A DNA stretch of 33,611 nt from Jimgerdemannia flammicorona (GCA_003990765.1 RBNJ01000303.1:1-33611); one strand, 5' to 3'. Counted from the stretch's first letter, positions 9,538 through 33,611 are shown. Notes: generated from the sequence alone by a model not told the origin. Program-made: numbers and translations.

Positions 9538-9820
9538 TATAAGTAATCGCGTAAGATCGTTTGATGAAGTTGGTTCACATCAAACTACGCGTTGTATGAT
9601 CGATAGTGGTTGTGTTATCCGATATTTCCTCTCCATGACTGCCTCGTACGTTTTCCTATCACCCGTAGCCAAATTAACGTATGTCTTCAAAAGCGTATCA
9701 TCCATTGAGAAAACTCAATAATGTTACCTTTCGTTGAAATCATCGGATGCAAGATACAGAACTATAAACCACACCCCACGTGACCCATTTTGGTGACTGC
9801 CACTCTCGGCATGGTGACGT

Positions 9821-10027
9821 CATCTCAATCAATCGTCGTTCGGCGTTCCATCTCAATCGTCGTTCGGCGTTCCATCTCAATCGTCGTTCGGCGTTCCATC
9901 TCAATCGTCGTTCGGCGTTCCATCTCAATCGTCGTTCGGCGTTCCATCTCAATCGTCGTTCGGTGTTCCATCTCAATCGCCGCCCGGCGTTCCATCAATC
10001 ATTTTTCCGTCATCTCAATCGTCGTTC
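9821..10027. repeat. 24-bp CpG-rich minisatellite, about 7 copies (AATCGTCGTTCGGCGTTCCATCTC)
   Basis: Units start at 9831, 9855, 9879, 9903, 9927, 9951 and 9975 (degenerate), with partial copies at both ends. An A23 tract follows at 10044-10066. Confidence 0.97.
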
Positions 10028-11111: not shown

Positions 11112-11604
11112 TATAATATAGTAGATACATAACTGTAGAAGTATATCAGATTTCTGTATCTTGAAAACTTGATCTTCTTTGACTCTGTAGAATTCTTAGA
11201 ATATAAGAGTGGGTGAGTTTGATATATATCTACCTATAGGCTTACTAGTTCTCTTACTTTCTCTTTTACTTTAAACTATTTTAATATGAGGTTTATTTAC
11301 TCTAAATACTAGGAATATTTATATAAGTTTGCTAGCTATAATATAGTTAAGTTATAACTATATTTTCTGTGAGTCATTTTTCATAAGTATTAATCCTTGA
11401 TATCTGTTAAATCTTGATAATTGTTAAGATTTAACATCTGTGAAATCTTGATATTTGTAAAAATTTAATATTTATTAAAACTCTATATTTGTAAAATATG
11501 ACTGTTATTTGTAAAGCTATACTATATTTGGGAATTGAATTCAGATACTATATTTAAATATCTATTTCTCTAATTCATATTTCTAATTTAGATCAACTGT
11601 TACA
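11112..11604 (-). repeat. 3' LTR of Gypsy A copy 1
   Basis: Direct repeat of 17250-17732. It begins TGTAAC on the minus strand immediately after the PPT. Confidence 0.9.
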
Positions 11605-11992
11605 ACTTCTTCCTGAATAGGTAATTTATCTCTAAAATATCCTATTCACTCAAACTTCCAAACTTCCATAAGTTATATCTCCTTATACTATATGATTTAT
11701 ATCATTATATTCTTTCAATAGTATCTTCAGAAATAAGCTAGAGCTCCTTAAATAACTTATTAACATATTTGACAATAGTAATCTAAGTATAGGAGAGCTG
11801 GCACTCTCTAATCTAGTCTTCTTTTCTCATCTCTAGGTACAAGTTTAGTAGTTGTTCCAACTTGAAGTATTCTTGAAACTTGGTCTAGTTCTGATAGATC
11901 TTAAAATGTGAGATTTATAACAAGTATATCTGGACTATACTCTGAATACTATCAAAGAATTCCTCATAATTGGCAGCTCAGTAGTACACCAT
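11605..11992 (-). pseudogene. Post-integrase accessory ORF3 of Gypsy A copy 1
   Basis: The ATG at 11992 (MVYY*AANYEEFFDSIQSIVQ...SYT*ITIVKYVNKLFK...ALAYF) is conserved in copy 2 at 22882. The frame runs toward the PPT/LTR. Confidence 0.6.
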
Positions 11993-14677
11993 TGTCTTTC
12001 TATAGCTTATTGTGTAATACTAGTGATCTTGAGGGCTATGGCAGTACTTTATTGATTAATTATGATACTTCTTAAGTTAGTTTTGATAAAAGGTAGTAAG
12101 GATGATTATGTCTATAAGTTTTTATAGCCAAAAGATAGTTCTTTTTATATCTTGTACAAGGTAAGATCCTTCTTACTTAGGCTCTAGTTTATGTGATCAT
12201 GAAGCTTTTACTATATTCTAATATACTAGGACTTTGTCTCCTATCTTAATAATCTTCAGAGACTTGGAAATCATTTCTGCATTATTCTGTTATAGTGCCT
12301 GCACCTTAGTTATATAATCCTCAGCCTTCTTTCTGATTTGATATAGTCTTAGTATCTCTATATTTATATGTTTCTATATAACATCTCTATTAGATGATAA
12401 GATTTTTTGAGAACTTTCTTCTCTAAACAGTAAGAGATAAAATAGATACTTTGTAATTAGATATTCTAAAGAGCAGATAATGCTATTAGCAGATAGTGAT
12501 TCTAGTTTTAATAGTTATTACAGATCTTAGTAATAATATTCTTAAGAGTCTTGTTAGTTCTTTCTACTTATCTATTTCTTTAAAAATAATAGACTGTAGT
12601 CTGAATATACTAGATCCTATATTTCTTATAGAGAACCTCAAAGAACTGGTTCATAAATTCTATTCCTCTGTCTATAGTTACTTATGTTAGGGTCTTGAAT
12701 CAGCAGATGATTTCTTTGTAGAAGAAATTAGCAATTAACTATATATTAGCTTCTTTAAGAGATCCTGTCTCTATTTATTTTATAAAAAGGTCTATAGTGA
12801 TAATGATATAATAGTTGTTATTCAAAGTCAATAGTAGAGGACCAATTATATTTATTGCAATATAGGCAAAGGATATTGGTTATATATGTGCTGATCCTGA
12901 GGTCTGATTTTATTAATCTTATTTCTATTTCTGATATTTATTATAGGTCTTGACAAATTGTCTGATATCTTTCTCTATTCCTGGCTACTATATTGTTCTT
13001 CTTACTTTTTCATAAATATTTGTTCCTCCTAGATAGCTGAGTTCATAGACTAATTTTATCACTTACTTCTTCTTCTATTCAGATATAACTAATAGCTTTC
13101 TTTTCTTTAGTATTTCTCTATCAGTCTCAAATTATTTCTATATTTTATTGATAATTATTTATATCTATTCTTCCAGATATTGGGGCATCTTTTGCTGTTT
13201 CAGATAGATGATAATTCTATAGTAAAGTTTCTTATTCATAGTTGATTTGCTAGTTAGAGGTCCTTTGGAGTATCTGTGAGAGGACATCTGCATTGGTATT
13301 AGTTCTTCTAGAGTGGTGTACAATAGTTATATTATAGGCTTACAACTTTATAATCTATCTAACATAGATTTCTTTAGGTTGCTCAGTAATCAGTAGCTAG
13401 ATGAGGACTGAATGATCTATCTGAATAGTGAAGTATCTTTTAGCAAGATAGTAGTAGAATTTTTCTACAGTCCAAATAACTGTGAGACATTCTAACTTAT
13501 AGGATTTATATTCCTTTTTAGCTCCTTGGATTTCTTGACTAAGATATATAATAACATACTCTACTTTATCTTTCTTCTGAGCCAAGACTGCTCCTAGTTC
13601 TTATATATTTATATCTGTCTGCAAGATGAATTCTTGAATCCAATTAGATCTTCTGAGGATGGGTGCTTGGATCAGTCTGATCTTGAGTTCATCAAATATT
13701 TTTATTATTTGCCAGTTTATTAAAACTTAATATCCTTCTTATTGAATTCATAGATTGGACCTGTGATATTGAAGAATCCTTTAATAAATTAGTGATAGTA
13801 TGAGGTAAGTCCCATAAAGACTTAGACTTAGTAATAGTGATAGGCCTTAGATATACTACTACTGCTTGAATCTTAAGAGAGTTTATGTATGTTCCATCTT
13901 GATTGATGATATGACCAAGGTAGGAGATCTTAATTTCTGCAAATTTATACTTCTTGGACTTGATATATAAGCTATACTTTCTTAGCTTCTCCATTATCTA
14001 TTTTTCTATATTATAGTAGAAGATTTTATTTATCATTTACTAAAAGCTTACTGGTGTATTGTATATTCCAAATGATATTTATAAGTAGACATAAGTTCTA
14101 TCTAGGGTATGAAGGCTGATTTTTTACTTTCTACTTCAGTGAGACCAATTTGGTAGAATTCTGAGTATAAATATAAGGTACTGTAATACTGTACTTTATC
14201 TTCCAGAGTTATAAGAATATTACTAATAAGAGGCAGTAATTGGCAATCCTTCTTAGTAGTCAGATTGAGCTTTCTGTAATTGGTACAGAGTCTTGAAGTA
14301 AATTCTCCTAGTTTGCTTTCTTTTTTCAGGACCAATATAACTGGTAAAGCTCAAGAGCTACTGGCTTCTTTAATGATATTGATTTCTTCTATCTGCTTGA
14401 TTTCTTCTCTGAGCTATTTATAGTAGGCTGATAGAATTGACCTTACTTTTTGATAGATTGATTCAGTGTCTTCTATATCTACATCATAGTAGTAGTGTGG
14501 AGTCTTTCCCTTGATATCTTTAAAGTCTGTAATCAGAATATCATCAAATTTATAGAATATCTTCTTGAGTTCCTTCTTGAGTGGGAATTTATTTCCAATA
14601 GTATAACTATACTTGTTTATAGTTTCTTCCTTCTTGTAATTCAATTTAGTGATCTTAGTGCTGGCAAATATTCCTCT

Positions 14678-18420: not shown

Positions 18421-19077
18421 AGCAGACTTCTGTTTTCAAGTATGCAGCAAAATTTTATGAAGATATGTAACTTTATAATTTATAAAAAAAAAAGAGATAT
18501 TCAGAAGGAAATATTATTATATTCAGAAATAGAATAATATAAAAACTCTCTAAGATATATAAGAATATATTTTTATAACTTAGAAATTATATCATAAGAT
18601 AAATCTTTTACTAGTACTCTCAAATAAATTAAATCAATTTAAATCAAAATCAAATTGGAGATTTTAATATTTAAATTAAATTTGAATTAAATTAAATTTA
18701 AATTGAATTGAGGGTCTAATTTGAATTAGTTAAATTAAATTAAACATTAATTCAAGATTCTTAGTAGCTTACTATATTATGAGATAATCTATTCTTTATT
18801 TGAAAGATATATTACTTAAAATTTATATATAACTAATATACATTTTTGAAATTCTCATATATATAACTAGTCCTAGTTTTGATCTTAGCTATATCTGGCT
18901 ATAGTGATAGTTATATGGTAAGTATTATTATATGACCCCCTTTTTAACAAAAGATCAGAAATTAATAGATTGAGTTATTAACAGATTTTAAGAAGAATAC
19001 AATATAGGTTTCTATATCTTTTACAATTTTTGCAGCTTATATGAGATTGATCTTTAATTTTTAAAGTAGTAGCTTAG

Positions 19078-19445
19078 ATAGTAATAGTGGCTTAAGCTTG
19101 AGTAGTGGCTTGAGCTTAAGCAGTAGCTTGAGCTTAGGTAGTAGCTTAGATAGTAGTAGTAGTGATAGTAGTAGCTTGAGTGATAGTGATAGCTTAGACT
19201 ATGACAGTAGAAGTAATAGTAGTAGTAGCTTGAGCTTAGACAGTAACTTAGACTAGGGCAGCAGCTTGAGCTTAGATAGTAGTTTAGGCTTAGATAGTAA
19301 CTTGGGCTTAAGTAATAGCTTAGACTAAAGTAGTAACTTAGGCTTGAATAGTAGCTTAGGCTTAAGTAGCAGCTTGGGCTTGAGTGGTGGCTTTAGAGGT
19401 CTTAGAAGTGAAGGCTTCAGGAGTAGCCTGAGGGATAGCTTCAGG
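19078..19445. repeat. Degenerate low-complexity tandem repeat with 6/18-bp periodicity (AGTAGCTTGAGCTTAGAT-like)
   Basis: Repeated agtagcttga/gcttag units. Probably a deaminated GC-rich repeat encoding Pro/Lys-rich sequence on the minus strand. Confidence 0.75.
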
Positions 19446-20114: not shown

Positions 20115-23100
20115 TAGGAGTATTCACTAGTATCAAGATCACTGAGCTAGAGCACAAAAAGGAAGAAACTACAAACAAGTACAGCTATACTATTGAAAAT
20201 GAATTCTCACTCAAGGTGGAGCTCAAGAAAATATTTTACAAATTTGAAGATATTCTCACTACAGATTTCAAGGATATCAAAGAAAAGACTCCACACTACT
20301 ATTATGATATAGATACTAGAGATACTGAACCAATTTACCAGAAGACAAGATCCATCCCACTAGCTTACTGAGAATGGCTCAAAGAAGAAATCAAGCAGAT
20401 AGAAGAGCTGGCATCATTAAGGAGACCAGTAGCCCCTGGTCTTCACCAGTTATACTAGCTCTGAAGAAAGGAAGTAAGCCTAGAGAATTCACCCCAAGAC
20501 TCTATATTGATTACAGAAAGCTCAATATAGTTACCAAGAAGGATTGCCAACCACTACCACTTATCAATGATATGTATCCTTATAACTTTGAGAGATAAAG
20601 CTCAGTACTACAGTACCTTAGATCTATACTCAGGATTCTACCAAATTAGACTCACAGAACAGCAAGTGAGATATCAGCCTTCATCATCTCAGATAGAACC
20701 TATATCTACCTATGAATACCATTTGGAATATATAATATCTCTGCAAGCTTCCAGCAAATGATAAACAAAATCTTCTACCATGATATGAGAAGATAGATGA
20801 TAGTTTATATGGATGATGTTATTATCTACAGCAAGACAGCCAAGGAATACCTGCAGCACATCAAGCAGATAATAGAAAAGCTAAGGTAGCATAGTCTTTA
20901 TATCAAGCCCAAGAAGTACAAATTCACAGAAATTGAAATTATCTATCTTGGCTACATCATTAATCAAGATGGAACATATACAGACCCTCTCAAGATTCAA
21001 GCAGTGCAGTATACCCAAGGCCTACCATAGTTACAGAAGTCCAAGCCTTCATGGGACTTACCTCATACTACTGCTGATTTATCAGAGGATTCTCTAACAT
21101 TGTAGACCCAATCTATGAACTCAATAAGAAAGATACTAAGTTCTAATAGACTGGTAGATAATAAAAAGTATTTGAAGAACTTAAGGTCAGATGGATTCAG
21201 ACATCTATCCTCAGAAGACCTAATTGAACTCAAGAATTCATTCTATAGACAGATGCAAGTGCCCAGAGACTAGGAGTAGTTCTAGCCCAAAAGAAAGACA
21301 AAGTAGAGTATATATATCATTATATACCTAAGTTGAGGAACTTGAGGAGCCAAAAAAGAATATGAATTCTACAAGTTAAAATATCTTGCAGTTATCTGGG
21401 CTGTAGAAAAGTTCTATTACTATCTTGCTAGAAGATACTTCACTATTCAGACAGACCACTTAGCCCTTACTTGGCTACTGACCAATGGACAATCCAAAGG
21501 AATTTATGTCAGATAGATCATAAAGTTGCAAGCATATAACATAATCATTGTGCACTACCCAGGAAGAACTAATACCAATGCAGATACCCTCTCATAGATA
21601 CCCTGAAGAACTCCCAACCAGCAAATTAATTATGAATAAGGAGCTCTACTATGGAATAATCACCTATCTGAGACAGTGAAAGACCCAATATCTGAAAGAA
21701 TGGACATAAACAATTATTAACAGAACATAGAAACAATTCAAAACCAATAAAGAAATATTAAAGAAAGAAAAGTTACTAATCATACTAAAATATAAGAAGG
21801 AGTAAGCAATGAAATCAGTATATGAACTTGGTCATCTGAGAGGAACAAATATATATAACAAAGTAAGAAGAATGATATGGTGGCCAGGAATAGAGGAAGA
21901 TATCAGACAATTTGTCAAGACCTGTGACAAATGTCAGAAACAGAAACAAGATTAATGAAATTAAGCCTCAGGATCAGTACACATAGAACTAGTACAATTT
22001 TCCCATATTGTAATAGATATAATTGGCTCTCTATCCTTGACTTTGACCAGCAACCAATAAATCATTGTCATTATAGACCTTTTCACAAAATGGATAGAAG
22101 CAGGACTCCTCAAGGAAGCCAATGTATAGTCAATTGCTGATTTCTTTCACAAAGAAATCATCTACTAGTTCAAGACCCCAACACAAGTAACTACAGATAG
22201 AGGAACAGAATTTGTGAACCAGTTCTTCGAGATTCTCTACAAGAAGTATAAGATCCAGCACATTTAGACTACAGCATACCATTCTCAAAGAAATAGACAG
22301 ACAGAAAGAACCAATAAGACTCTCAAAAATATTATTACCAAGATCTGCAATAACTATGAAACCTAGGATCACTATCTGCCAATAAAATTATCTACTCTCC
22401 AGGATATTGATCATAAAACACCCATTTCACCTCTTGAGAAATGCTGTTTGGAGAAGAAGGTTCTTAAGAAACCCTATCATCCAATAGAGATGTTATATGG
22501 AAATATATGGATGGAGAAATATGGAGACTATACCAAATCAGGAAGAAGACTGAGGATTACATAATCAAGATACAAGCACTATAACAGAATAATGTAGAAA
22601 AAGTTCATAAGCCCCTGGAGATTATCAAGATAGGAGACAAAGTCCTGGTGTATTGGAATATAGTAGAAGCTTCATGGCCATAAAAACTGGAGCCTAAGTG
22701 GAAAGGACCTTACCTTGTGCAAGATATAAAAGAGACTACCTTTTGGCTATGAAAACTCTCAGACATAATCATCTCTACTACTATTCACTAAAACTGACTC
22801 AAGAAGTATCATGGCTAGTTAATGAAGTATAGCTACAGCCCTCAAGATTACTAGTACTACACAACAAGCCATAGAAAGACAATGGTATACTACTGAGTCA
22901 CCCATAATGGAGAAATCCTTTGACAGTATCCAAAGTATAGTACAGATACATCTATCACAAATTTCACACTTCAAGGTCTACCAGAATTAGACAGAGCTTC
23001 AAGAATACTTCAAGTTAGAACATACTGAATTCACAGTCAGAAATGGAAAAAGAAGACTGGATCAGAGAGTACCAGCTCTCTTATTTTCAAAGATAATGAG

Positions 23101-23369
23101 GCAGCCCTAGCCCATTTCTAAGAAGTAGTTCCAGGAGATTTTGGACACATTAAGTGATACTATTGAGAGAACATAATGATACAAATTGTATAGTACAAGA
23201 AGATACAAATTATAGAAGCTTGGGAGTTTGAGTGAATAGGATATTTCAGAGATGAATCACCTATTCAGGAGGAAGTTGTAATGGTTGATTCAAATTAGGA
23301 ACAAGAATTAGGGGAATTAGACATTTGATTGTGGTACCTGAGCCCAATTCCCAATATAGTATAATCTTA
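20115..23369 (+). mobile_element. Gypsy A copy 2, 5'-truncated (RT-RH-IN-ORF3-PPT-partial 3' LTR)
   Basis: Colinear with the reverse complement of ~11510-14675. Motifs: SSPWSSPVIL, RLYIDYRKLN, IVYMDDVIIYS (~20800), RNase H TDAS, integrase GHL...CDKCQ and TDRGTEF. PPT at 23266-23276. The LTR starts TGTAAT at 23277 and is cut at 23369. Confidence 0.93.
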
Positions 23370-23704
23370 GAGGAGGAGGAAGGCCCAGCGGGAGCCATGG
23401 GAGCAAACCCAAAGCCAGTGTTAAAGCAAATGGAAGACATGTGGAAAAGCATATATAAAGGGGACAAACAAAGAATGTAACTGAAATTGCATCAGCCATT
23501 TATTGCTACGTAAAAACATAGTCCTTATATATAAAATACGATATCCCAAAAGGGAGGACATGCCACAACTCGAGGCAAACCGAATTAGGAATCACATGAC
23601 TGCTGGAGATAGGCGGAGATAAGAGGGGAGTCAATCCCAGTTGTAGGATAAAAATCACAAACAAACACAAATAAAACAAATCCAAATCAAGATTAAAAAA
23701 CATC
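23370..23704 (-). repeat. Inverted copy of the distal ~335 bp of the PLE pseudo-LTR
   Basis: Reverse complement of 23858-24189 and 27497-27831, from GATGTTTTTTAATC to CTTCCTCCTCCTC. Confidence 0.95.
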
Positions 23705-24189
23705 CTTGCCCCCTCCAGGGTCTCGCACTCACTCCAGGGCCTTGGCCTTACTCTGCTCCCCTCCACTGCCTTTGGCCCCTCACTTCACTCAGGCTTGCTG
23801 CGGCTCACTCTATTTCGGCCTCACCCCTCGCTTGTGCTCACCCCTCTGGGGTCTGCAGATGTTTTTTAATCTCAATTTGGATTTGTTTTGTGTTTGTTTG
23901 TGATTTTTATCCTGCAACTGGGATTGGCTCCCCTCTTATCTCCACCTATCTCCAGCAATCATGTGGTTCCTAATTTGGTTTGCCCCGAGTTGTGGCACAT
24001 CCTTCCTTTTGGGATGTCATATTTTATATATAAGGACCACATTTTTATGTAGCAATAAATGGCTGATGCAATTTTGGTTACATTCTTTGTTCATCCCCTT
24101 TATACATGTTTTTTCACATGTCTTCCATTTGCTTTGACACTGGCTCTGGGTTCACTCCCATGGCTCCTGCTGGGCCTTCCTCCTCCTCT
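23692..24189 (+). repeat. 5' pseudo-LTR of the PLE, containing TATA-like and AATAAA motifs and the ORF1 start
   Basis: Direct repeat of 27331-27831, with TATATAAGG at ~24027, AATAAA at ~24054 and ATG at 24118. Confidence 0.9.
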
Positions 24190-25320
24190 GCTGTACCATC
24201 TGCCCTCGGGGCCTCCATCCTCATCGACAAGGTTATGGATGAGGTTTCTTCTCCTCCTCCCCCTGCCTTCACCCCTGCTACTGTCTCATTTGAGGCTTAC
24301 GTCTCATCTACCATTCTCTCTCTCCCCCCTTCCGATCATCCACTCCTCTCCCAGTTTCGGTCAGTTCTTGCCCTCTCTGCCAAGGAGACTCATCTCTGCT
24401 GTGACATCGATGTTATTGCTCTGCCTGCCATTTGCTATTCCATTCTCCCTGAGGCCTACCACCAAGCTCTCTCTGAAGAGATTCATGCTGCCACTGCCAC
24501 CACCAAGCTTGCTACTGCTGATGCTGCTACTGCTTCCGCTGCTACTACCTCCGCCTCTTTCCAACATGCCTGTGCTGCTTTCATAGCCTTTACCTCCTCT
24601 TGCCTCTCAGATGCTGCTCTTTTCTGTGGCTTCACCATCCATGAAGTTCCTTCTGTCGCCACTGACATTGATGCTGTATGTCATTTCCTCCTTGCCAGCA
24701 CTTCCTTCGTTGCTCGTCTTCACAAGTAGGAGATGTCTTATGCCACCACTTCTGCTCGCACCACCGCCACTGCTCCCCTACCTGCCTCTCCTGAGGTTTC
24801 AGTCTCTGAGGCCATTTGTGCTAAGGCTCACACTGCCGCTCATGCTGAGGTCCATTCCTTTGCCACCACCGCTGCCAAGGCCCCCTCCAAGACCCCTGCC
24901 AAGGCCCCTGCTAAGCCCAACCAGGCTTTGTCGGCCTCTTCTTGGTCCCCCTCCCCCACCAAGGCTTCCTCCTCTATTCCCTCCACTCCTAAGCATGGCC
25001 ACCAACTTGGTTCTCACCCTGTCAGGACCTGGCCTTATGCTGTCTGCTCCAGTCACCTCCACTGTACCTACTGGCACCCAGCCAAGTCCATCTGTCCCCA
25101 TGGTGGCATTCCTTGCACTGCTGCCCCTTTGGCTGCTCACTTGCCTTCGGCTTCCTCTGCCGGCTCCTCCTCTGCCTCCTCCACCCATGCCCCTGAATGT
25201 AAGGACTGCATGAAAGCCTGTAGCTGCAAGGTCTGGTACTCTGACAGGGTGTGCTCCCATTCGTCAGCTTCGCCACCTTCAAAAAAAGTCAGAGGGAAGG
25301 GGAAGGCCTCTTACTCTTAA
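24118..25320 (+). pseudogene. PLE ORF1 (~400 codons; Ala/Ser/Pro-rich with a Cys/His-rich C-terminal part), one premature TAG
   Basis: ORFs 24106-24729 and 24733-25320 share a frame and are separated only by TAG at 24727 (probable CAG). Cys/His clusters are CSSHLHCTYWH...CPH and HAPECKDC...C.C. Confidence 0.7.
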
Positions 25321-25406
25321 ACTTCCCCCTGGCATGGTTCTCTCCCAGTGTCCCCATCCCTTCTCGGATCCCATTGTCACTTCTGGTGCACCCTGAGTAG
25401 TTCCTC

Positions 25407-27335
25407 ATGTTGACCCCCCTTTGTCTTTCCCAGTTGCTTGTCCTGAACTTTTGGGTTTATTCTTCTCTTGAAACACTTTTGTCTCCTCCTTTTTCTTTGG
25501 CTGACTGTCCTCTTTCTCCTCTTCAAGTCTTTGCCTTATCCTTGGGACCTTGCTTCATTTTTCCTGTGACTCCCTCACAATTTTCCTTTACTGATCCGGC
25601 TTGTCTCACACATTTTCATCATGCTCTTGACCTTGCCATCTTCTTCAAAGATTGTGATGAGATGCCCTCTTGCTATTTTGTTCCCAGCGATTGGGTCCCC
25701 CCTCCCAATGTCTCTTCAAACTGCGTATTCCTCGACATAGCTTGCTCGCTGTCTGTTCCCAGATGTGCTCACTCTTGTTTGGTTTCGGACCATGCCATGC
25801 GTATCATGCTTAAATTGGTCAAGCAATTGCCTATGCATTTGCTCACAGTCACTGATAAGAATCAGGGTTTTGCACTTATTCCTAAGTTGCTCTACCTTGA
25901 TGGCCTTTCTGCCCTCCTTCAAGCTGTGGCTTATGAGCCTAGCGCTCTTGGATTGGATGAGGTTCTCACTCTTCTTTGGGCTTCTCTGGCTCATGCCAGA
26001 TCACTTTTGGATTCCCCATTTACAAATCCCATTTTTAACTTCTTTCAGGACTCTTTGTCCTCTTTGGACATTTGTCTTCTGATCTTCTATGTTCTTTCTA
26101 AAGTTCACAAGCCTACTTTGGCTTAGTGTCCCATTACGGCTGCTTATAATTCCCCCACTACTGAGATTTCAAAGTGGTTATCCCACTTCTTTCTCTCTTG
26201 GATAGCTCTTTTACAACACTGTCTTGGGCCTGAGTATACTATTCTTCATGATACTTAGGAGCTCGCCCTTCTCTGCTCCACCATTGTGCCTGTTCACCAT
26301 TTTTCCCATTTGGTCTCTGGTGATTTTTCCTCCTTCTACACTGCTATTCATTTTGATGAGATCGATGATTGCCTTTGTTTCCTGGGTTCCATTGCCTTTC
26401 CTTTGGACTCTCTGGTCTCGTTGGCTTCTATTGTTGAGCTTATGCTCCTCGTCTGTGGCTCTAATTACTTTGAGTCAGCCCTTGGCTCTTTTCACCAGAC
26501 TTCTGATATTGCCATGGGAACGAATTGTGCCCCTATCCTTGCCAACCTTGTTGGCCTGGCCCATGAGCTTCATGCGATATGTGATCCTTCTTCACCTCTT
26601 TCCATCACATTCCAGGCTGGAGATATCTTCTTTTGCCGATACATTGATGACTTTATTGTCCTTGCTGTTACTGGCATTGATATCTCTAGTGTTTTTTCAG
26701 GTGTCTACCCTCTCCATCATTCTATTACTTGGGTGTATGGTATGACTAGTATTCTCTTTTTGGACCTTTCCATTTCTCTTTCTCCTTTTCGAACTATTGT
26801 CTATTCTCATTTTCCATGTTCTCAACAGTTCTCTGACTTCCTGTCCAATCATCCTCATCACACTCTTCTTGAATGTATTCATAGTGAGGCTTGTTGTCTT
26901 GCATTATGCTGCTCTCATCATTCTGATTGAGTGTCTGCTGTTTGGGTTCTTGGCAACTTCATGGTCTATCGACATACCTATCCAATTTCTATCATTCATG
27001 ATCTGCTTGCTTCTGTTGAATGGTCTGTTGTTCATTCTTCCCTTCTCTCTCCTCTTTATCCCTCTTCCCTTCCCTCCCTCCCCCCTTATCCTCTCCATAC
27101 CCTCTCTTCTTTCCTGCCCCCGATTCTTGTCGTACCATTTGATCATGCTCGCTGGGTTGCTCAATGCCCTGATACCATCCTGCACTCTTCTCTTTCATGC
27201 TATGGACTTTCATCTCTTTCTTGATGCTCTCTGATCACTTGTTCATGTCTTCCTTCTGTTTCTTCTTTAATCCATCGCTCTCATTTTGCATTTTCGTCAC
27301 CTTCTGGTACCTCCAGCTTTGCTAGAGAGAATTAA
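25407..27335 (+). pseudogene. PLE reverse transcriptase ORF2 (~640 codons), four in-frame stops, no frameshift
   Basis: LSLGPCF, TDKNQGFALI, FYVLSKVHKP...PI, GDFSSFYTAI, NYFE...FHQTSDIAMGTNCAPILANL, RYIDD (YIDD 26640-26651), FLDLSI and the thumb SNHPHHT...SEA...CS. Stops at 26124, 26256, 26928 and 27222 are each explicable by C>T/G>A. Terminal TAA at 27333-27335. Confidence 0.9.
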
Positions 27336-27831
27336 AAAACATCCTTGCCCCCTCTGGGGTCTCGCACTCACTCTGGGGTCTTGGCCTTACTCCGCTCCCC
27401 TCTACTGCCTTCGGCCCCTCACTTCGCTCAGGCTTGCTGTAGCTCGCTCTGTTTCGGTCTCACCCCTTGCTTGCACTCACCCCTCTGGGGTCTGTGGATG
27501 TTTTTTAATCTCGATTTGGATTTGTTTTGTTTGTATTTGTTTGTGATTTTTATCCTACAACTGAAATTGGCTCCCCTCTTATCTCCACCTATCTCCAGTG
27601 GTCATGTGGTTCCTAATTCAGTTCGCCCTGAGTTGTAGCACATCCTCCCTTTTGGGATGTCATATTTTGTATATAAGGACTACGTTTTTACATAGCAATA
27701 AATGGCTGATGCAATTTCGGTTATGTTCTTTGTTCATCCCCTTTATACACACTTTTCCACATGTCTTCCGTTCACTTTGACACTGGCTCTGGGTTCGCTC
27801 CCATGGCTTCCACTGGGCCTTCCTCCTCCTC
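27331..27831 (+). repeat. 3' pseudo-LTR of the PLE
   Basis: Direct repeat of 23692-24189, ending in the first ~24 codons of ORF1. Confidence 0.92.
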
Positions 27832-28510
27832 AACTTTCTTGCTAGTATTCAAGCTTACTTCACTTAGAATACTTCTTATAATCAAAGCTAAATATAACTA
27901 TAAAATCCATCAAATAGACATTAAAATAGCCTTCTTAAATAGTGATGTAGATATAGAGCTATATATCTATTACCTATAAAGATATAAACTATATGATGAT
28001 AGAAATAAGCTCATATATAAATTATATAAAGGTCTCTATAATATTAAATAAGCAGTAAGACTGTGAAATCAAAAAAATCAACAAATATCTCTTAGACAAT
28101 AGATTTAAATATTATAAAGCTGATTTATATATATATACCTAGCATATATTCTCAGAAATAATATATCTAGACATTTGGATCAATAATATCATTTTAGTTA
28201 GAACAACAAGTGAGATTAATAATATAAAGATAATACTATATTAGAAATTCAAGATGATAGATATAAGTAATACATCCTATCTTCTTGAAATATTAATTAT
28301 ATATAACAGATATGAATATACTATATATCTATCATAAGTTATATATATTTAGACTATATTTGAATAATTTGATATATGTAAGTAAATAAAAATCTATCAG
28401 AATATCTATGGAGATATCTATAAGACTAAAGAAGTTTAGTGATACTATATCTAAAGATAATAATATTCTCTATTGGTAAGCTGTGAGATCTCTTATATAT
28501 ATATATATAT
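27832..28510 (+). mobile_element. Hypermutated Ty1/Copia reverse transcriptase fragment
   Basis: TFLLVFKLTSLRILL...KIHQIDIKIAFLNSD matches Copia TFSPV...HQMDVKTAFLNG, KGLYNIK*AVRL matches LYGLKQA, and YW*AVRSLIY matches YRxAVGSLMY. The fragment is truncated at both ends by other elements. Confidence 0.88.
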
Positions 28511-28627
28511 TGTGACATACACAATTGACAATAGAGTACCGGTGATTGCTAAGATCAGATGACATAATGGCGTGACAATCAAATAGACAGCCTGACCCAT
28601 TAGGTGATTATCCCAAAAGAAGACAAG

Positions 28628-29704
28628 ATGACCCAAGCCAAAATGAAGACCACATTATTTAAGGAACCATACTCCGCCTCAGGGATCGGCACCAAAGAAC
28701 CAAGTACCCACCATACAATGCCTCCCATTCGCCAAACCAACCAGACCTCCCACCGCTCTACCCCTTTGCCTGGCCCAAAAACCCTGATCTTTGAAGCTAT
28801 CAAGAAGGCCATCTGGTGCCCAGATACTTCCGAACACTTGAACTTCTATACCGAGGACCTTGGACACTTCATCAACTACTGGTATATAATGACCCAACAG
28901 CTCAAAGACACTACCGAACAAATGACCCTCTGGTATGACTATGAAATCGGACACTGCCTTCGCAATGAGACTCAAGAAGGCGACCAGGAAGACCTCATTG
29001 CCGAAATGTTAACCACCAGCCAGCTAATCAAGAGAGCCCTCCGTGTCCATCAAATCTTCCACCATATTCCCTGGGCTATAGCACACTTGCAAGGAGTAAC
29101 AGCTGGCAGCCTCTCCCACCTTTCAACTGAAGATGCTGACTGGATAGAATCTGAAGTAGCCAATGCTATTGGCAGCAACTGCATCAATGTAGGAAGCCAA
29201 CAAACCGAACCTACTCAGCCAGGTTTCCACACCACCCCACTCTGAGACAACCATCAAGGTCACCTAATGAGTCTTATGGAGATATTCGAAGGACCGCCCA
29301 TCACTGTAGAGGCACCCGTTGGAGCTACCCCAACCACCCACCACCCTGTTAGCCACAATTCACACCTCATCATTTGGGAACTGAATCAAGAAAAAGCCCA
29401 AGAAGTTCCTGTCCTTGAAGAGGAGGTCCAAGAACTCCAAGACCCTGCCCCTGAAGAAACCCCCTCTGACACTGAAACTGATGAGCCTTCAGAAGAAGAA
29501 GAGGAGCAACAGAGAGTCTACCAGTCCTCTGTCCGCATTCAAGCTGTTCAAGGGTTGGAGAATGTTGTTGAAGATGACTGGCCACTTTTCTACCCCCTCA
29601 CCTCTTGGCCGGCACTTCCCCCCTTTGAGGAGAGATATGATGAAGAAGAAATCACAACCCAGCAAGATTTGCCCGCCACGGACGAAGGGTACTATTTCCT
29701 CTAG
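28628..29704 (+). pseudogene. LTR-embedded accessory ORF (~330-360 aa; helical N-terminal domain, acidic C-terminus), one premature TGA
   Basis: ORFs 28604-29245 and 29267-29704 are in one frame, split only by TGA at 29243 (probable CGA). Candidate starts are 28628 or 28718 (MPPIR). Confidence 0.72.
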
Positions 29705-29732
29705 AGTACCGCCCATCAGCCATGAGAACCCA

Positions 29733-29945
29733 TCTTTTGTCAGCAAGTCTGTTTCCAGCGTTGCTACCCAGTACCACTGTTTTCAGCATTTTGTCAGCAG
29801 GTCCGAATCCAGCATTGCCACCCTCCACAACTGCTTCTGGCAACAATCATCATATCATGTCAGCTCATCCGAATCCAGCGTTGCTACCCAGTACTACCAT
29901 TTTCAGCATTTTGTCAGCTCATCCGAATCCAGCATTGCTATCCCC
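29733..29945. repeat. Four related ~54-69-bp units (TGTCAGC...TCCAGCRTTGC) upstream of the TATA box, enhancer-like
   Basis: Repeated TGTCAGCNNNTCCGAATCCAGCRTTGCYAYCC blocks. Confidence 0.85.
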
Positions 29946-30108
29946 TATAACCCAATCCGTAGTAAACAATAGCCTGTACCTCGCATCGTGCAAGCCAATA
30001 GCATAGCGAAGTTCACCACAACATAGTATATCTTAGCCTTAGTTGCACCCCCTCCCCCATAGCTAGCAAACTTGTATAAATAACCCATATTCTTAGAGTG
30101 AATAAACC

Positions 30109-30505
30109 TCAGTCAACTGGTTTTGAGAAATAACCACTACCTCCAAGAGACCGGATAAATTCTGAGAACAAGATAACAACCTAGAGCAACAGATCGCTCA
30201 GAAGTTTGAGTTAAAGAATTTTCTCTTGCCACGGAAAGAAAACATTACCCGATCGCCGCCATTCGACCGCCATTCAAGACCCAAGACCCAGCCAAGGATT
30301 CAAGACCATGGACCGCCCGCAAATTCAGTCAATTGGTTTTGAGAAATAACCACTGCCTCCAAGAGACCAGATAAATTCTGAGAACAAGATAACAACCTAG
30401 AGCAACAGATCGCTCGGAAGTTTGAGTTAAAGAATTTTCTCTTGCCACGGAAAGAAAATGTTACCCGACCGCCGCCATTCGAGACCCAGCCAAGGATTCA
30501 AGACT
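30109..30505. repeat. Tandem duplication with a 216-bp period in the R/U5 part of the family B LTR
   Basis: TCAGTCAAYTGGTTTTGAGAAATAACC...CGCCGCCATTCGA begins at both 30109 and 30325. Confidence 0.92.
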
Positions 30506-31048
30506 ATGACTGCTGTGCATTCAGACCGCCATTCGGACTGCCATTCGAGATTCAAGACCCAGAAACCCAAGGATACCCAGCCAAAAGATACAAGACTGCT
30601 GCCAAAGACCCAAACGACCTGCCAAGATACTCGAACGACCACCAGGAACTCTTCAAGTTAACAAGTCAAGACGGACGAGCAAGCCACCAACTTCTGTTTT
30701 TTTCCCCGACCTACTGCGCCACGGACCGCTTTAATTGACTGCATAAAGAGCAAGACCATCAAGACCGTCGCCGCATAAATTCAAGGTCGCCACATAAATT
30801 CAAGTTTGCCGTCAAGTTAATCACCGCCAGGAAACTTAGCCAGCATAATCGCCGCCCTTATCCACTAAACAATTGAGCCATCATTGAATGATCTCCCGCT
30901 ATTATTATCGCACGTTTTGAATGACCTGTCACGTGACCATCGATCCGCGAACATCACCAATGCCCTCAGATATACATCGCGCGCTTCACTAAGTGGCACA
31001 TTGAGCCATGCAGTCGAAGTTCATTATACATAACCCAACATCACATTT

Positions 31049-31065
31049 TGGGGGCTCAACTGGGA
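31049..31065 (+). promoter_or_regulatory. Primer binding site, tRNA-Pro type
   Basis: TGGGGGCTCAACTGGGA follows the LTR-terminal CA and resembles the tRNA-Pro PBS TGGGGGCTCGTCCGGGA. Confidence 0.8.
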
Positions 31066-31943
31066 AAGTTTTCAAAAGACTTGACCATTTGGCTCAAGAA
31101 CCCAGCTATCTACAGTGGAGAACTTAGCAGGACCAAGTCAGCAACCAAACCAGGGGCAGCAACAGCCCTCCTCAGCAGAAAAGAAAGCCCACACCCTTGT
31201 CAGAACAGTAGCCAGGACCCTACTCAACACCAGTAGCCAGAAAACCGAATCAGAAGAAAGAAGTGACCCAGATTATGGTTTGACTTCAAGAGAAAGGAGA
31301 CAACTCAGAGGGCAACCAGAACCGCCCCTTCAGATTCAAGACTTAGGCCAAGAAGAAGAAGAGGATATCCCCGAGGAGTATCAGACCCTTATCCATAGGA
31401 AGAACTCAGACAGAAGTGGCTACATAACTACTGTTGTTACTCGAGTTACTCCACTAGACCAGGTATACTTTGAAACATCAGAAGGAGAAGAGGACAACCA
31501 TCCATATCAACCAGAGCAAGACGACGATTGGGGATCAGACCATCAAAGGGACGAATTCAACCTATACATACTATTATCCAGACAGCGACACTGACCCACA
31601 ATAAGGCAAACAAGACTTCACTACTTCACAACAGCAAGGGGCAGATAAACTCACTATCCGTTATATCAGTCCACTCCCACCATCAGTTGCTCGAACTTCA
31701 GTACCCTGGTCACTCACACCTCGCCACTATCACCAGTCTATCAGAAGATCTCCACCACTACCCAGGACTTCAACCCCAGCATTAATTAGAAGAGCCAGAT
31801 TACCCTCACCCTCACCAAGACACCGCCCTCTGCCAGTACCACTAGATCATCAAGTACTAGCACCACCACCTTCCCCACCACCCTGAGGATCTACCAGAAC
31901 CCCTACCCCTGAACAATACTCAGATAGTGAAGACGAGCCAGAC

Positions 31944-33611
31944 ATGAGCTACCTTCAGAAGTTCCATGGTGCAGACAATGAAGATATCGAGGAATTCTTT
32001 GGAGAAATTGAAGTTCAAGCAGCCGCCAAACAATGGGATGCTGCAAGAAAACTCAGAATCGTGGAGTCACTCCTGAGAGGACTGGCCCTACAGGGGTATA
32101 ATCAAGCCAAGCAAGCCGGAGGAGGAATCCATATAGAGGAACTGAATGACGGCCTTCAACCTGATAGAAACTATGTAGCAAGATACATGATTCACAAAGC
32201 CTGGCTCCGTGCCCAGTTCAATGGATTCGAGCACCAACAAGAAGCACAGGAGGCTTTGACCTATATGAGCCAAGCTGCCAATGAAACTCCCAAGAGTTTC
32301 TACCATTGGATTCAAGCTCAAATGATTAAGGCGAACCTTCAACCAGCAGTCCAACTGGCTCTAGCCTCAACTACCTTCCTCAATGGCTTATACCCAGAAC
32401 TCCAAAGGCAAGTTATCAGGATGGGATATTGAAACATTGAACAGCAAGTTGCTGGAGCACAAGGATGTTGGGAAGCAGATTATAGACCAGTACAACAAGT
32501 ACAAGGCTATCCTGAGCCAATCCGAGCTGAAACCCCAAGGACCAGAGAAACAACCATGGAGCAAGAGAATGCTTTTCTCAGAGCCCAGATAGCCAACTAT
32601 GAGAACAGACCAGCACCCACAAATCCGACTCCATTCAGGCAACCACAGCAGCAGCCACCATCAAGAGTTCAAGAAGACCCTATGACAACACTCACCAAGC
32701 AAATGAAGGACCTGGCCATCGTGGTTGCCCAGCTGAACAACCAAGGTAGAAGACAACAAGACTACCGTCGTGATAACAGACCAGACTACTGGCAACAAGA
32801 CAACAGAGGTCCTGCCCCTGCACTACCAGCTGCAACTACAGTCTCATCAGCGACTGGTTCCTATGGTCCCACCTACTTCAACTGCAGAAATCAAGGCCAC
32901 ATCCAGAGGAATTGTCCAAGGAACCAACCCACCCAGTCCAATGACAGAAATGTCAACCTCTTTCAGGTAGATGAAGAGACTCAGGAGATGGAAGAAGAAG
33001 CAGCCTGGCTCCATGGTCAAGAAGATGACATCTACCTGTACTTCGAGGCTTTTCCATCCAAGGTGACATGGGAAGCTGCCCCCGCAGAGACCAGAGAACG
33101 AGGAAGACCACGAAGGAACCTCCCACCTCAACTGCCAGTAACAATATCCACAGGCAAGCATCCGCGACATGGCCACTCTTCTTCAGATACTCCACAAGAA
33201 CAAGAGAAGCGAGCTAGAAGAGATACTCCTGAACCAGAAGCTGGACCATCTAGGACAACCCCCAGCTCTACCCTGCCAGACCTTGAAGAAGATGAGCATA
33301 TGAGCATAGAATCTTCAGCTGACGAAATGCCCATCAGGAATGAGAGACTACACCCCAAGGGACCAAGACACCAAAGAAGCAGCAAACCCCATGCAGCAGC
33401 CTCACTTTGGGAACATATCCGCCTACAGAATGCTGGTCTTACAGTTGAGCAAGTCCTCAAGAATGCACCAGAAGTCAGGCGAAAATTCCTGAAAGAAGCC
33501 AAGGAAGATACCAAGAGACTTCCAGTCCAAGGACCACACACTCAAGAACCTAGCACTATCCACACAGTCCATGAGAGCCAGTGACATGAACATCAATCTA
33601 CAAGACTCGCC
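31944..33611 (+). pseudogene. gag (probably gag-pol) of family B, interrupted by TGA codons
   Basis: LQKFHGADNEDIEEFF...W...KLRIVESLLRGLAL, MSQAANETPKSFY...FLNGL, and the zinc knuckle YFNCRNQGHIQRNC (first Cys TGC>TAC). The frame is maintained through TGA at 32430 and 33582. Confidence 0.88.

What the first reader, a model, noticed from the sequence alone, without database searches (positions are those of the whole stretch)
28511..31045. Apparent 2.5-kb LTR with a protein-coding gene in U3 (nef/sag-like layout)
Seen in sequence: TGTGA start at a sharp junction with the Copia relic, a ~1-kb ORF, enhancer-like repeats, TATA, AATAAA, TCACA end, tRNA-Pro PBS, then gag. The ORF lies upstream of the TATA box, so it could only be expressed from the 3' LTR copy or an internal promoter. 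Established: U3-overlapping genes occur in retroviruses (MMTV sag, HIV nef), and fungal LTRs are usually much shorter. Inference: in family A the homologous ORF lies before the PPT and only its tail enters the LTR, so family B may have captured the gene into the LTR by shifting its PPT upstream. Solo LTRs would then spread the gene.
Basis: partly seen in the sequence, partly recalled or inferred. Interest (0 to 1): 0.75.

Follow-up and report, generated by a model that had tools for sequence, protein, structure and literature searches.

The report
Gene inside a retrotransposon's terminal repeat
A Gypsy-type jumping gene carries a real but unnamed protein gene, apparently with its own promoter, entirely inside its unusually long terminal repeat, a layout known from a mouse retrovirus, so even the lone repeats left behind in the genome hold a whole copy of the gene.

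Summary
Confirmed. Window 28511-31045 is the 2,535-nt 5' LTR of a dUTPase-bearing Ty3/Gypsy element. Of 38 genomic copies with both ends read (2.2-3.0 kb), 15 follow a PPT, 15 precede a tRNA-Pro PBS and 8 are solo LTRs with 4-bp TSDs; two 12.7-12.9-kb elements have paired LTRs. U3 holds a ~328-codon gene (28718-29704, one premature stop here) under purifying selection (pN/pS 0.14 against 1.0-1.3 in control frames), starting 62 nt after a TATA-like box that precedes the homologous start codon in all five lineages whose DNA I read. Homologues lie inside the LTR in a second family, wholly before the PPT in a chromovirus family, and (weakly related) across the PPT in family A. The chromovirus layout, not family A, is the better model for a PPT shift: it shares a 255-nt non-coding segment (85% identical) with this family. 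The protein (helical core, acidic tail, no membrane segment) matches no known family or fold; a Tas-like self-regulator is my best guess (about 0.4). Expression is not shown. Earlier scan notes report this gene family on other windows of this genome.

The parts
27875..28510 (+). Decayed Ty1/Copia reverse-transcriptase relic: the insertion target, ending in a (TA)n run
   Evidence: Pfam RVT_2 E 2e-09 when read with X at stops
28507..28510 (+). ATAT, the expected left copy of the 4-bp target-site duplication (the right copy lies beyond the contig end)
   Evidence: 4-bp TSDs in 8 of 8 solo LTRs and 2 of 2 full elements; ATAT is the commonest target
28511..31045 (+). 5' LTR of family B Ty3/Gypsy element, 2,535 nt, TGTGA...TCACA
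   Evidence: 38 copies with the same start, classed as 5', 3' or solo by their flanks
28656..28663 (+). TATTTAAG, putative TATA box of the accessory gene, 62 nt before the conserved ATG
   Evidence: found at LTR position 138-146 in 38 of 38 copies; TATAAAAG or TATAAATA at 65-87 nt in families C and D and contigs L113, L114; function inferred
28718..29704 (+). Accessory gene in U3: 328 codons plus stop, ~200-aa helical core and acidic tail; premature TGA at 29243-29245 in this copy
29731..29951 (+). Two 101-nt direct repeats (80% identical) between the gene and the main TATA box; candidate enhancer or response elements
   Evidence: family D13; role inferred
30073..30106 (+). Main LTR core: TGTATAAATA (30073) and AATAAA (30101); implies a very short R
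   Evidence: similar core in family A (83% over 53 nt, pair I16), family C and L114; R not mapped
30107..31045 (+). Long, length-variable presumed R-U5 with a 170-nt duplication (30109/30325)
   Evidence: 80-83% identity and up to 51% gaps among copies in the last 735 nt, against 94.7% and no gaps in the ORF
31049..31066 (+). Primer-binding site, 18-nt complement of tRNA-Pro(AGG) 3' end
31085..31943 (+). About 290 Met-free codons upstream of and, in other copies, in frame with gag; frameshifted here
   Evidence: unexplained
31944..33611 (+). gag (broken), running off the contig
22829..23369 (+). Family A post-integrase ORF (decayed, frameshifted), read through the PPT into the LTR that starts at 23277; distant relative of the U3 gene
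11512..12045 (-). Second family A copy of the same ORF (decayed); its LTR starts near 11604
   Evidence: (read directly), inverted pairs I7, I12

Best explanation
The stretch is the 5' LTR of a Ty3/Gypsy retrotransposon (gag, protease, dUTPase, RT, RNase H, integrase, no chromodomain) whose U3 contains a self-contained accessory gene. SHOWN: LTR status, tRNA-Pro PBS, the gene lying wholly between PPT and main TATA box, purifying selection on the frame from the MPP start, and homologues on both sides of the PPT in other lineages. INFERRED: a TATA-like box in U3 drives a ~1.4-kb mRNA that ends at the LTR's AATAAA, so 5', 3' and solo LTRs are each a complete transcription unit. The gene belongs to a promoter-plus-ORF cassette that is exchanged among Gypsy lineages at the 3' end; it came to lie in U3 when plus-strand priming moved to a purine tract upstream of it. 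GUESSED: the protein is a nuclear self-regulator, most likely a Tas-like transactivator: the basic N-terminus and helical core bind element nucleic acid (candidates: the 101-nt U3 repeats), and the acidic, aromatic tail recruits host transcription machinery and so switches on the main LTR promoter. Separate odds: LTR layout 0.98; once-functional protein gene 0.9; own promoter 0.7; transactivator 0.4.
For: Layout. Domain order. Selection in 36 copies: shared non-deamination changes 25 synonymous of 474 sites against 15 non-synonymous of 1,976 (pN/pS 0.14); shifted frames 1.04 and 1.26; C>T/G>A decay 0.91-1.01; shared against singleton Fisher p 0.002; family C 0.26 (20 copies), family D 0.15 (25 copies, control 1.15). 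The in-frame stretch before MPP shows no such signal (0 synonymous, 4 non-synonymous shared changes). 16 of 112 scored copies have no stop in the frame. Family C (30% identical protein) has the gene inside a ~1.52-kb LTR with PPT, PBS and solo copies with TSDs. Family D (chromodomain E 9e-13) and contig L113 have the stop codon directly before a G-rich tract and TGTAAT (23 of 25 D loci; 2 run off the contig). B reads pol-X-PPT-TATA-gene, D reads pol-X-TATA-gene-PPT, with X 255 nt and 85% identical while the integrases are 31% identical. Protein: helical model, pLDDT 73; no 19-residue hydrophobic window above 0.93; tail 17-30% D/E. Precedents: MMTV U3 ORF with its own U3 promoter P2 (PMC9412291, passages); foamy Tas with internal promoter and C-terminal acidic activation domain (PMC517496, passages).
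Against: No transcript, start site or R region is shown; TATA-like words are short and AT-only, so deamination cannot erase them and their persistence within a family says little. No sequence or fold links the protein to any DNA-binding or activator family. Family B lacks the FxDLI-type tail motif that C, D, L113 and P0007 share. X is far more alike between B and D (85% DNA) than the genes are (32% protein), so the two did not move together recently, and the PPT-shift direction is not fixed; B and C are not sister lineages by integrase (A-C 63%, B-C 41%), so either two shifts or a reversal are needed. The host was not identified; 'fungal' is an untested assumption. All copies read are decayed (LTR pairs 7.5-8% apart).
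Confidence: 0.45

Rival explanations
1. Anti-silencing factor: the protein binds the element's repeats and counters the host's cytosine methylation or heterochromatin, acting in trans from any LTR, solo ones included.
For: Copies decay almost only by C>T/G>A changes, mostly at CpG (176 of 181 and 168 of 189 differences between paired LTRs), so silencing pressure is strong; the cassette is shared by chromoviral and non-chromoviral lineages. VANC-type anti-silencing proteins of plant DNA transposons are a recalled precedent (search listing only).
Against: No likeness to any chromatin protein; copies are heavily deaminated in spite of the gene.
Confidence: 0.2
2. Rev/CERV-like RNA factor: the protein binds a cis element in the genomic RNA (candidate: non-coding segment X after pol) and promotes export or packaging.
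For: X is non-coding (single-base indels between B and D), closed by an 8-bp terminal stem, and travels next to the gene in B and D; CERV of Cer1 is a retrotransposon precedent (PMC10309623, abstract); basic N-terminus.
Against: Family C has the gene but no detectable X; folding z-scores of X are weak (+1.1 to -2.7 in 10 decayed copies); most of the 8 two-sided changes in the consensus fold are single lineage splits or deaminations; no Rfam match.
Confidence: 0.15
3. Nef-like host-interaction adaptor: the conserved tail motifs (FxDLI[SDI]F, PxVLNF) dock on host trafficking or autophagy proteins and the core binds particles or host factors.
For: The motifs recur in C, D, L113, P0007 and relatives and look like clathrin-box or Atg8-binding motifs (recalled, not tested).
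Against: Such short motifs also fit acidic activation domains; family B lacks the first; no myristoylation glycine or membrane segment.
Confidence: 0.1
4. Envelope-like or structural particle protein in the env position.
For: In family D and L113 the gene sits where env-like ORFs sit, between pol and the 3' LTR (review PMC7264820).
Against: No signal peptide-like or transmembrane stretch; it has a TATA-like box of its own rather than a shown splice; no fold match to capsid or fusion proteins.
Confidence: 0.05
5. The ORF is a functionless passenger or a chance open frame in a long LTR.
For: Most copies carry stops (96 of 112 scored); no expression shown.
Against: Frame-specific purifying selection in three families; protein homology at 30-40% across lineages; no indels in the ORF region of the copies aligned against many in U5.
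Confidence: 0.03

Closest known systems
MMTV sag/naf ORF in U3 of the LTR (PMC9412291, passages read)
   Same: A long ORF wholly inside U3 of both LTRs, with a second promoter (P2) in U3 besides the main one; element also bears a dUTPase; short R recalled for MMTV and inferred here.
   Different: MMTV is a betaretrovirus with env; Sag is a membrane superantigen. This is an env-less Ty3/Gypsy element and the protein has no membrane segment and no likeness to Sag in any search.
Foamy-virus Tas/Bel1 (PMC517496, passages read) and lentiviral nef (recalled)
   Same: 3'-end accessory genes; Tas is about the same size (recalled), is made from an internal promoter and has a C-terminal acidic activation domain.
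   Different: They only overlap U3 or lie before it; no sequence or structural relation found; transactivation is untested here.
Sense additional ORFs between pol and the 3' LTR (aORF-3S) of plant and insect Ty3/Gypsy elements; maize Grande gene23 with its own promoter (review PMC7264820, main text read)
   Same: Conserved extra ORF of unknown function in most copies; families D and A here fit this class by position.
   Different: The review places aORFs in the internal region; here the gene is inside the LTR in two families; not env-like; Grande gene23 is antisense.
dUTPase-bearing fungal Ty3/Gypsy elements (PosPlaTy3-5, Tmt1; PMC2864245, passages read)
   Same: dUTPase between protease and RT; that paper's figure legend also lists an 'add. 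ORF' of unknown function.
   Different: No gene in the LTR is mentioned in the passages read; family B has no chromodomain. Relationship by RT was not tested.
Ogre elements (PMC6431247, passages read)
   Same: Very long LTRs (1.9-6.5 kb) and extra ORFs.
   Different: Ogre's extra ORFs are described as lying in the internal region.

Membership tests
LTR of an LTR retroelement | Direct repeat at both ends with TG...CA termini | tested here: met
   two full elements with paired LTRs 91.8% and 92.5% identical; 38 copies share the boundary
LTR of an LTR retroelement | Target-site duplication | tested here: met
   4-bp TSD in 8 of 8 solo LTRs and 2 of 2 full elements
LTR of an LTR retroelement | PBS after the 5' LTR, complementary to a host tRNA | tested here: met
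   18-nt match to tRNA-Pro(AGG) plus CCA
LTR of an LTR retroelement | Purine tract directly before the 3' LTR | tested here: met
   GCAAGGGGCAGA-type tract before 15 of 38 copies; its use as primer is not shown
LTR of an LTR retroelement | U3-R-U5 borders set by transcription start and poly(A) site | not testable with these tools
   only motif positions; no stranded raw reads were available
Ty3/Gypsy (Metaviridae) | pol order PR-RT-RH-IN | tested here: met
   DTGA protease, dUTPase, YIDD RT, RNase H, integrase with GPY-type module in this order
Chromovirus | Chromodomain at the integrase C-terminus | tested here: not met
   family B integrase stops just after the KWEGPY module; family D does have one
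env-like aORF | Position between pol and 3' LTR | tested here: not met
   inside the LTR in families B and C; met only by relatives D and L113
env-like aORF | Transmembrane segment | tested here: not met
   highest 19-residue Kyte-Doolittle mean 0.44-0.93 in six homologues
MMTV sag-type U3 gene (layout) | ORF wholly within U3 | tested here: met
   ORF at LTR 208-1194, between LTR start and main TATA at about 1560
MMTV sag-type U3 gene (layout) | Own promoter in U3 | tested here: inconclusive
   TATA-like box at a conserved distance in five lineages; no transcript
Sag, Nef or Tas protein families | Sequence or fold homology | tested here: inconclusive
   no Pfam, PDB-sequence or fold match at significance; models of moderate confidence
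DUF3102 (PF11300) | Profile or fold match of the helical core | tested here: inconclusive
   lead recalled from memory; no profile hit in the genome or members; DUF3102 proteins at Foldseek E 0.9 and 2.9 only
Transcriptional transactivator (works-like claim) | Nuclear, binds LTR, activates it | not testable with these tools
   only composition: basic N-terminus, acidic tail

The most novel reading that the evidence does not exclude
A new protein family forms a promoter-bearing regulatory cassette that is traded among distant Gypsy lineages (chromoviral and non-chromoviral) and has moved into the LTR at least twice by relocation of the PPT. Every solo LTR is then an autonomous regulator gene scattered in hundreds to thousands of copies, able to activate or de-silence intact elements in trans: a retrotransposon counterpart of complex-retrovirus regulators, evolved independently and without env.
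Probability: 0.3. Interest if true: 0.85.

Novelty: new variant of a known kind. Interest (0 to 1): 0.62.

Why it matters
LTRs of retrotransposons are treated as non-coding and solo LTRs as dead remnants. Here an LTR carries a selected protein gene, so ectopic recombination leaves a complete gene behind instead of removing it. The same cassette on both sides of the PPT in one genome gives a natural series for how U3 grows and how complex-retrovirus layouts (sag, tas, nef) can arise. The protein family is undescribed in the libraries searched and can be tested with a simple reporter assay. Annotation pipelines with LTR length limits or that mask LTRs will miss it.

Tried and rejected
Start at ATG 28628 or 28643: rejected in favour of 28718, as homologues begin MP[PA] and the upstream in-frame stretch shows no selection (small counts). 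Family searches without significant hits: Pfam, PHROGs, PDB sequences (only a composition-driven JAK1 match, E 0.085), ESM Atlas (best 0.88 and 0.92, unnamed clusters, 145 shared features at most), viral contigs. Fold searches of two models (pLDDT 73 and 67): Foldseek PDB and BFVD none at E <= 0.001, VIA best Z 4.2 and 6.2, typical of helical bundles; this does not show a new fold. Expression: no RNA holder listed; the one run offered (X1, RNA by guess, contigs) had short pieces over the ORF from related copies and cannot show strand, start or level. First tRNA-Pro pattern found nothing; the second found 4 genes. Family C spacer as a remnant of family A's ORF: no signal. Segment X as a protein gene: rejected by frameshifting indels; as a structured RNA: unresolved. 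The integrase tree included three frameshifted rows and is not relied on; identities were recomputed without those three and one duplicate. Literature: searches gave no paper on a protein gene wholly inside a Ty3/Gypsy LTR; five phrase hits I opened were irrelevant; most listed papers were seen as listings only, and subscription papers and Repbase reports are not in the library.

Full report
OBSERVATION. The repeat starts TGTGA at 28511, after a (TA)n run within a decayed Copia RT (RVT_2, E 2e-09), and ends TCACA at 31045. A search of the window's own genome (231 Mb, 35,354 contigs) gave 1,357 candidate places, of which 40 were scored. I fetched all 40; 38 had both ends (two ran off their contig). 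All 38 start at the same base and are 2,245-3,026 nt long (median 2,386). Fifteen follow a GCAAGGGGCAGA-type purine tract, 15 including this one precede TTTTGGGGGCTC, and 8 have neither; all 8 of those have a perfect 4-bp target duplication (L037, labelled solo by my script, is a 5' LTR by its flank). Two contigs hold complete elements of 12,919 and 12,717 nt with ATAT duplications and LTR pairs 91.8% and 92.5% identical. The PBS at 31049-31066 is an 18-nt perfect complement of the 3' end plus CCA of a tRNA-Pro(AGG) gene present at four places. The refuting case, a short LTR that begins after the ORF, is therefore excluded.

THE ELEMENT. The internal region (about 7.9 kb) reads gag, protease, a long insert, dUTPase (E 9e-29), RT, RNase H, integrase, with no chromodomain: a Ty3/Gypsy element, here called family B. 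dUTPase between protease and RT is known from fungal Gypsy elements (PMC2864245, passages). The host was not identified; that it is a fungus is an assumption I did not test. Copies decay almost only by C>T/G>A changes, mostly at CpG.

THE GENE. The long frame spans LTR positions 94-1194. This copy has one premature TGA (29243-29245); 16 of 112 scored copies have no stop (5,547 candidates), and 3 of my 36 aligned copies are open. Homologues begin MP[PA], which places the start at 28718 and gives 328 residues. Selection was tested on 36 copies (one LTR of each paired element dropped). Deamination-type changes are neutral (pN/pS 0.91-1.01). Other changes shared by two or more copies give 25 synonymous of 474 sites and 15 non-synonymous of 1,976, pN/pS 0.14; the two shifted frames give 1.04 and 1.26; singletons give 0.59; shared against singleton p = 0.002. 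The in-frame stretch before MPP shows 0 synonymous and 4 non-synonymous shared changes, too few to be firm but consistent with the later start. The ORF region has no gaps among copies, while U5 has up to 51%. So the frame was kept by selection while the element was active.

RELATIVES AND POSITION. (i) Family C, found beside a family A copy, encodes a 30%-identical protein inside a ~1.52-kb LTR (TGTAAC...GTGACA): 9 of 20 loci follow a CAGGAGGAAGA-type tract, 5 precede a different PBS, and three solo copies among 14 further stretches have 4-bp TSDs; pN/pS 0.26. (ii) Family D, found with metagenome contig L113 as query, has a chromodomain integrase; its gene (32% identical to B, 40% to C) lies after pol, and its stop codon is followed at once by a G-rich tract and TGTAAT in 23 of 25 loci, the other two running off the contig; pN/pS 0.15, control 1.15. 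I did not confirm D's LTR by TSDs. L113 has the same layout; L114 has the gene before an LTR-type TATA/AATAAA core. (iii) Family A, in the window at about 11512-12045 (-) and 22829-23369 (+), has a 178-codon ORF that reads through its PPT. Its kinship is weak: hhalign probability 14.6% and 17.6% (E 0.0018, 0.0014) over an ungapped 65-67 columns; a profile of six homologues scores 7 of 12 A copies above the best of 600 shuffles (best 14.7 against 6.6 bits), the copies not being independent. Outside the genome, relatives are few and all unnamed metagenome proteins.

OWN PROMOTER. A TATA-like box precedes the conserved ATG in every lineage read: TATTTAAG at 62 nt in B (38 of 38 copies), TATAAAAG at 87 nt in C, 80 nt in L113 and 65 nt in L114, TATAAATA at about 72 nt in D (25 of 25). 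In B and C the main TATA box and AATAAA follow the gene. I infer a ~1.4-kb mRNA from TATA 28656 to just past AATAAA 30101, so that any LTR, solo ones included, is a whole gene. AATAAA only 26 nt after the main TATA implies a very short R and a ~0.9-kb U5. None of this is shown by RNA.

HOW IT GOT THERE. B and D share a 255-nt segment X right after pol, 85% identical, non-coding by its single-base indels. B reads pol-X-PPT-[TATA-gene-LTR core]; D reads pol-X-TATA-gene-PPT-[LTR]. Against a simple story: X is far more alike than the genes, so they did not move together recently; integrase identities (A-C 63%, B-C 41%, A-B 35%, B-D 31%, C-D 31%, A-D 24%, three frameshifted rows and one duplicate left out) do not follow the gene's; C has no detectable X. 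The cassette is thus exchanged among lineages, and the U3 position needs two shifts or one shift and a reversal. Direction is not shown.

WHAT THE PROTEIN DOES. AlphaFold gives an all-helical core (family C sequence, 15-row alignment, pLDDT 73, pTM 0.68; core alone 67). No family or fold matched; DUF3102, a lead from memory, appears only at Foldseek E 0.9 and 2.9. Six homologues have no hydrophobic segment, a mildly basic N-terminus and a tail of 17-30% Asp/Glu, which argues against env. An own promoter, this anatomy and the repeats between gene and main TATA box fit a self-regulator like foamy-virus Tas, which is made from an internal promoter and has a C-terminal acidic activation domain (PMC517496, passages). 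I put this at 0.4; anti-silencing 0.2; Rev/CERV-like RNA factor acting on X 0.15 (PMC10309623, abstract); Nef-like adaptor 0.1; structural 0.05; passenger 0.03. These are inferences.

COMPARISON AND NOVELTY. The closest layout is MMTV, whose U3 holds the sag/naf ORF and a second promoter, P2 (PMC9412291, passages). Extra ORFs of Gypsy elements are well known but are described in the internal region (PMC7264820, main text and part of the references; Ogre in PMC6431247, passages; PMC3248453, passages has nothing on it). Seven searches found no paper on a protein gene wholly inside a Ty3/Gypsy LTR; the library lacks most subscription papers and Repbase reports, and Additional file 1 of PMC2864245, which may say where its 'add. 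ORF' lies, was not read. I class it as a new variant of a known kind: a sag-like layout in an env-less retrotransposon, with an undescribed protein. Earlier scan notes report the same gene family on other windows of this genome; they are not independent support. They pointed me to the CERV and 'add. ORF' papers and offered the Tas comparison, and their chromovirus claim I checked myself.

VERDICT. Observation confirmed; interpretation partly supported; interest 0.62.

Noticed in passing
L016:1209-1470 (+) (family B); L132:1538-1799 (-) (family D): Segment X: a ~255-nt non-coding stretch right after the pol stop, 85% identical between a non-chromoviral and a chromoviral Gypsy family whose integrases share 31%; ends pair in an 8-bp stem; no Rfam match; 1,891 candidate places in the genome. 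Recent exchange or strong constraint.
   Followed up: partly
window 31085-31943: About 290 codons without Met lie upstream of gag and in its frame in other copies (0 Met in 9 of 10 copies, 1-5 stops each): possible non-AUG or spliced N-terminal extension of Gag.
   Followed up: partly
flanks of the 38 family B LTRs: All 38 target 4-mers have a central TA (ATAT 24, ATAG 4, TTAT 4, CTAT 3, GTAG 2, CTAG 1; two pairs counted twice): a strict target preference.
   Followed up: partly
L013:7256-8779; L015:6567-8567: Family B pol has a long Cys/His-rich insert between protease and dUTPase, and what looks like a second degenerate dUTPase-like stretch before RT (by eye).
   Followed up: no
tails of P0003, P0007, P0009-P0012, L113, L130: Conserved short motifs FxDLI[SDIN]F and PxVLNF in the acidic tail, absent from family B; they resemble activation-domain, clathrin-box or Atg8-binding motifs (recalled).
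   Followed up: no
L071:1150-1165 (-), L113:355-375, L114:50-68: The leader just before the ATG keeps GACT[TC]AC(C/T)ACAAAC in three lineages; on the other strand it reads as a splice donor (GT[AG]AGT).
   Followed up: no
L129-L153, about 72 nt before the ATG: Family D's internal TATA box (GTATAAATACCC) is nearly the same word as the main LTR TATA box of families B, C and L114, hinting that the cassette promoter is LTR-derived.
   Followed up: no
window 23369-27831: A different element with 300-340-nt direct and inverted repeats (23369-23705, 23692-24189, 27331-27831) and a decayed RT (RVT_1 E 0.0013) interrupts the family A LTR; the repeat layout suggests a DIRS- or Ngaro-like or Penelope-like element.
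   Followed up: no
window 9805-10020 and 19060-19413: Tandem arrays with 24-nt and 18-nt units.
   Followed up: no
paired LTRs L013/L005 and L015/L016: Differences are nearly all C>T/G>A, most often at CpG, then CpA: methylation-driven or RIP-like decay.
   Followed up: partly
L071:1391-1395 (-): A family C element inserted right after a TGTGA word inside a family A LTR, which mimics the family B LTR start.
   Followed up: partly
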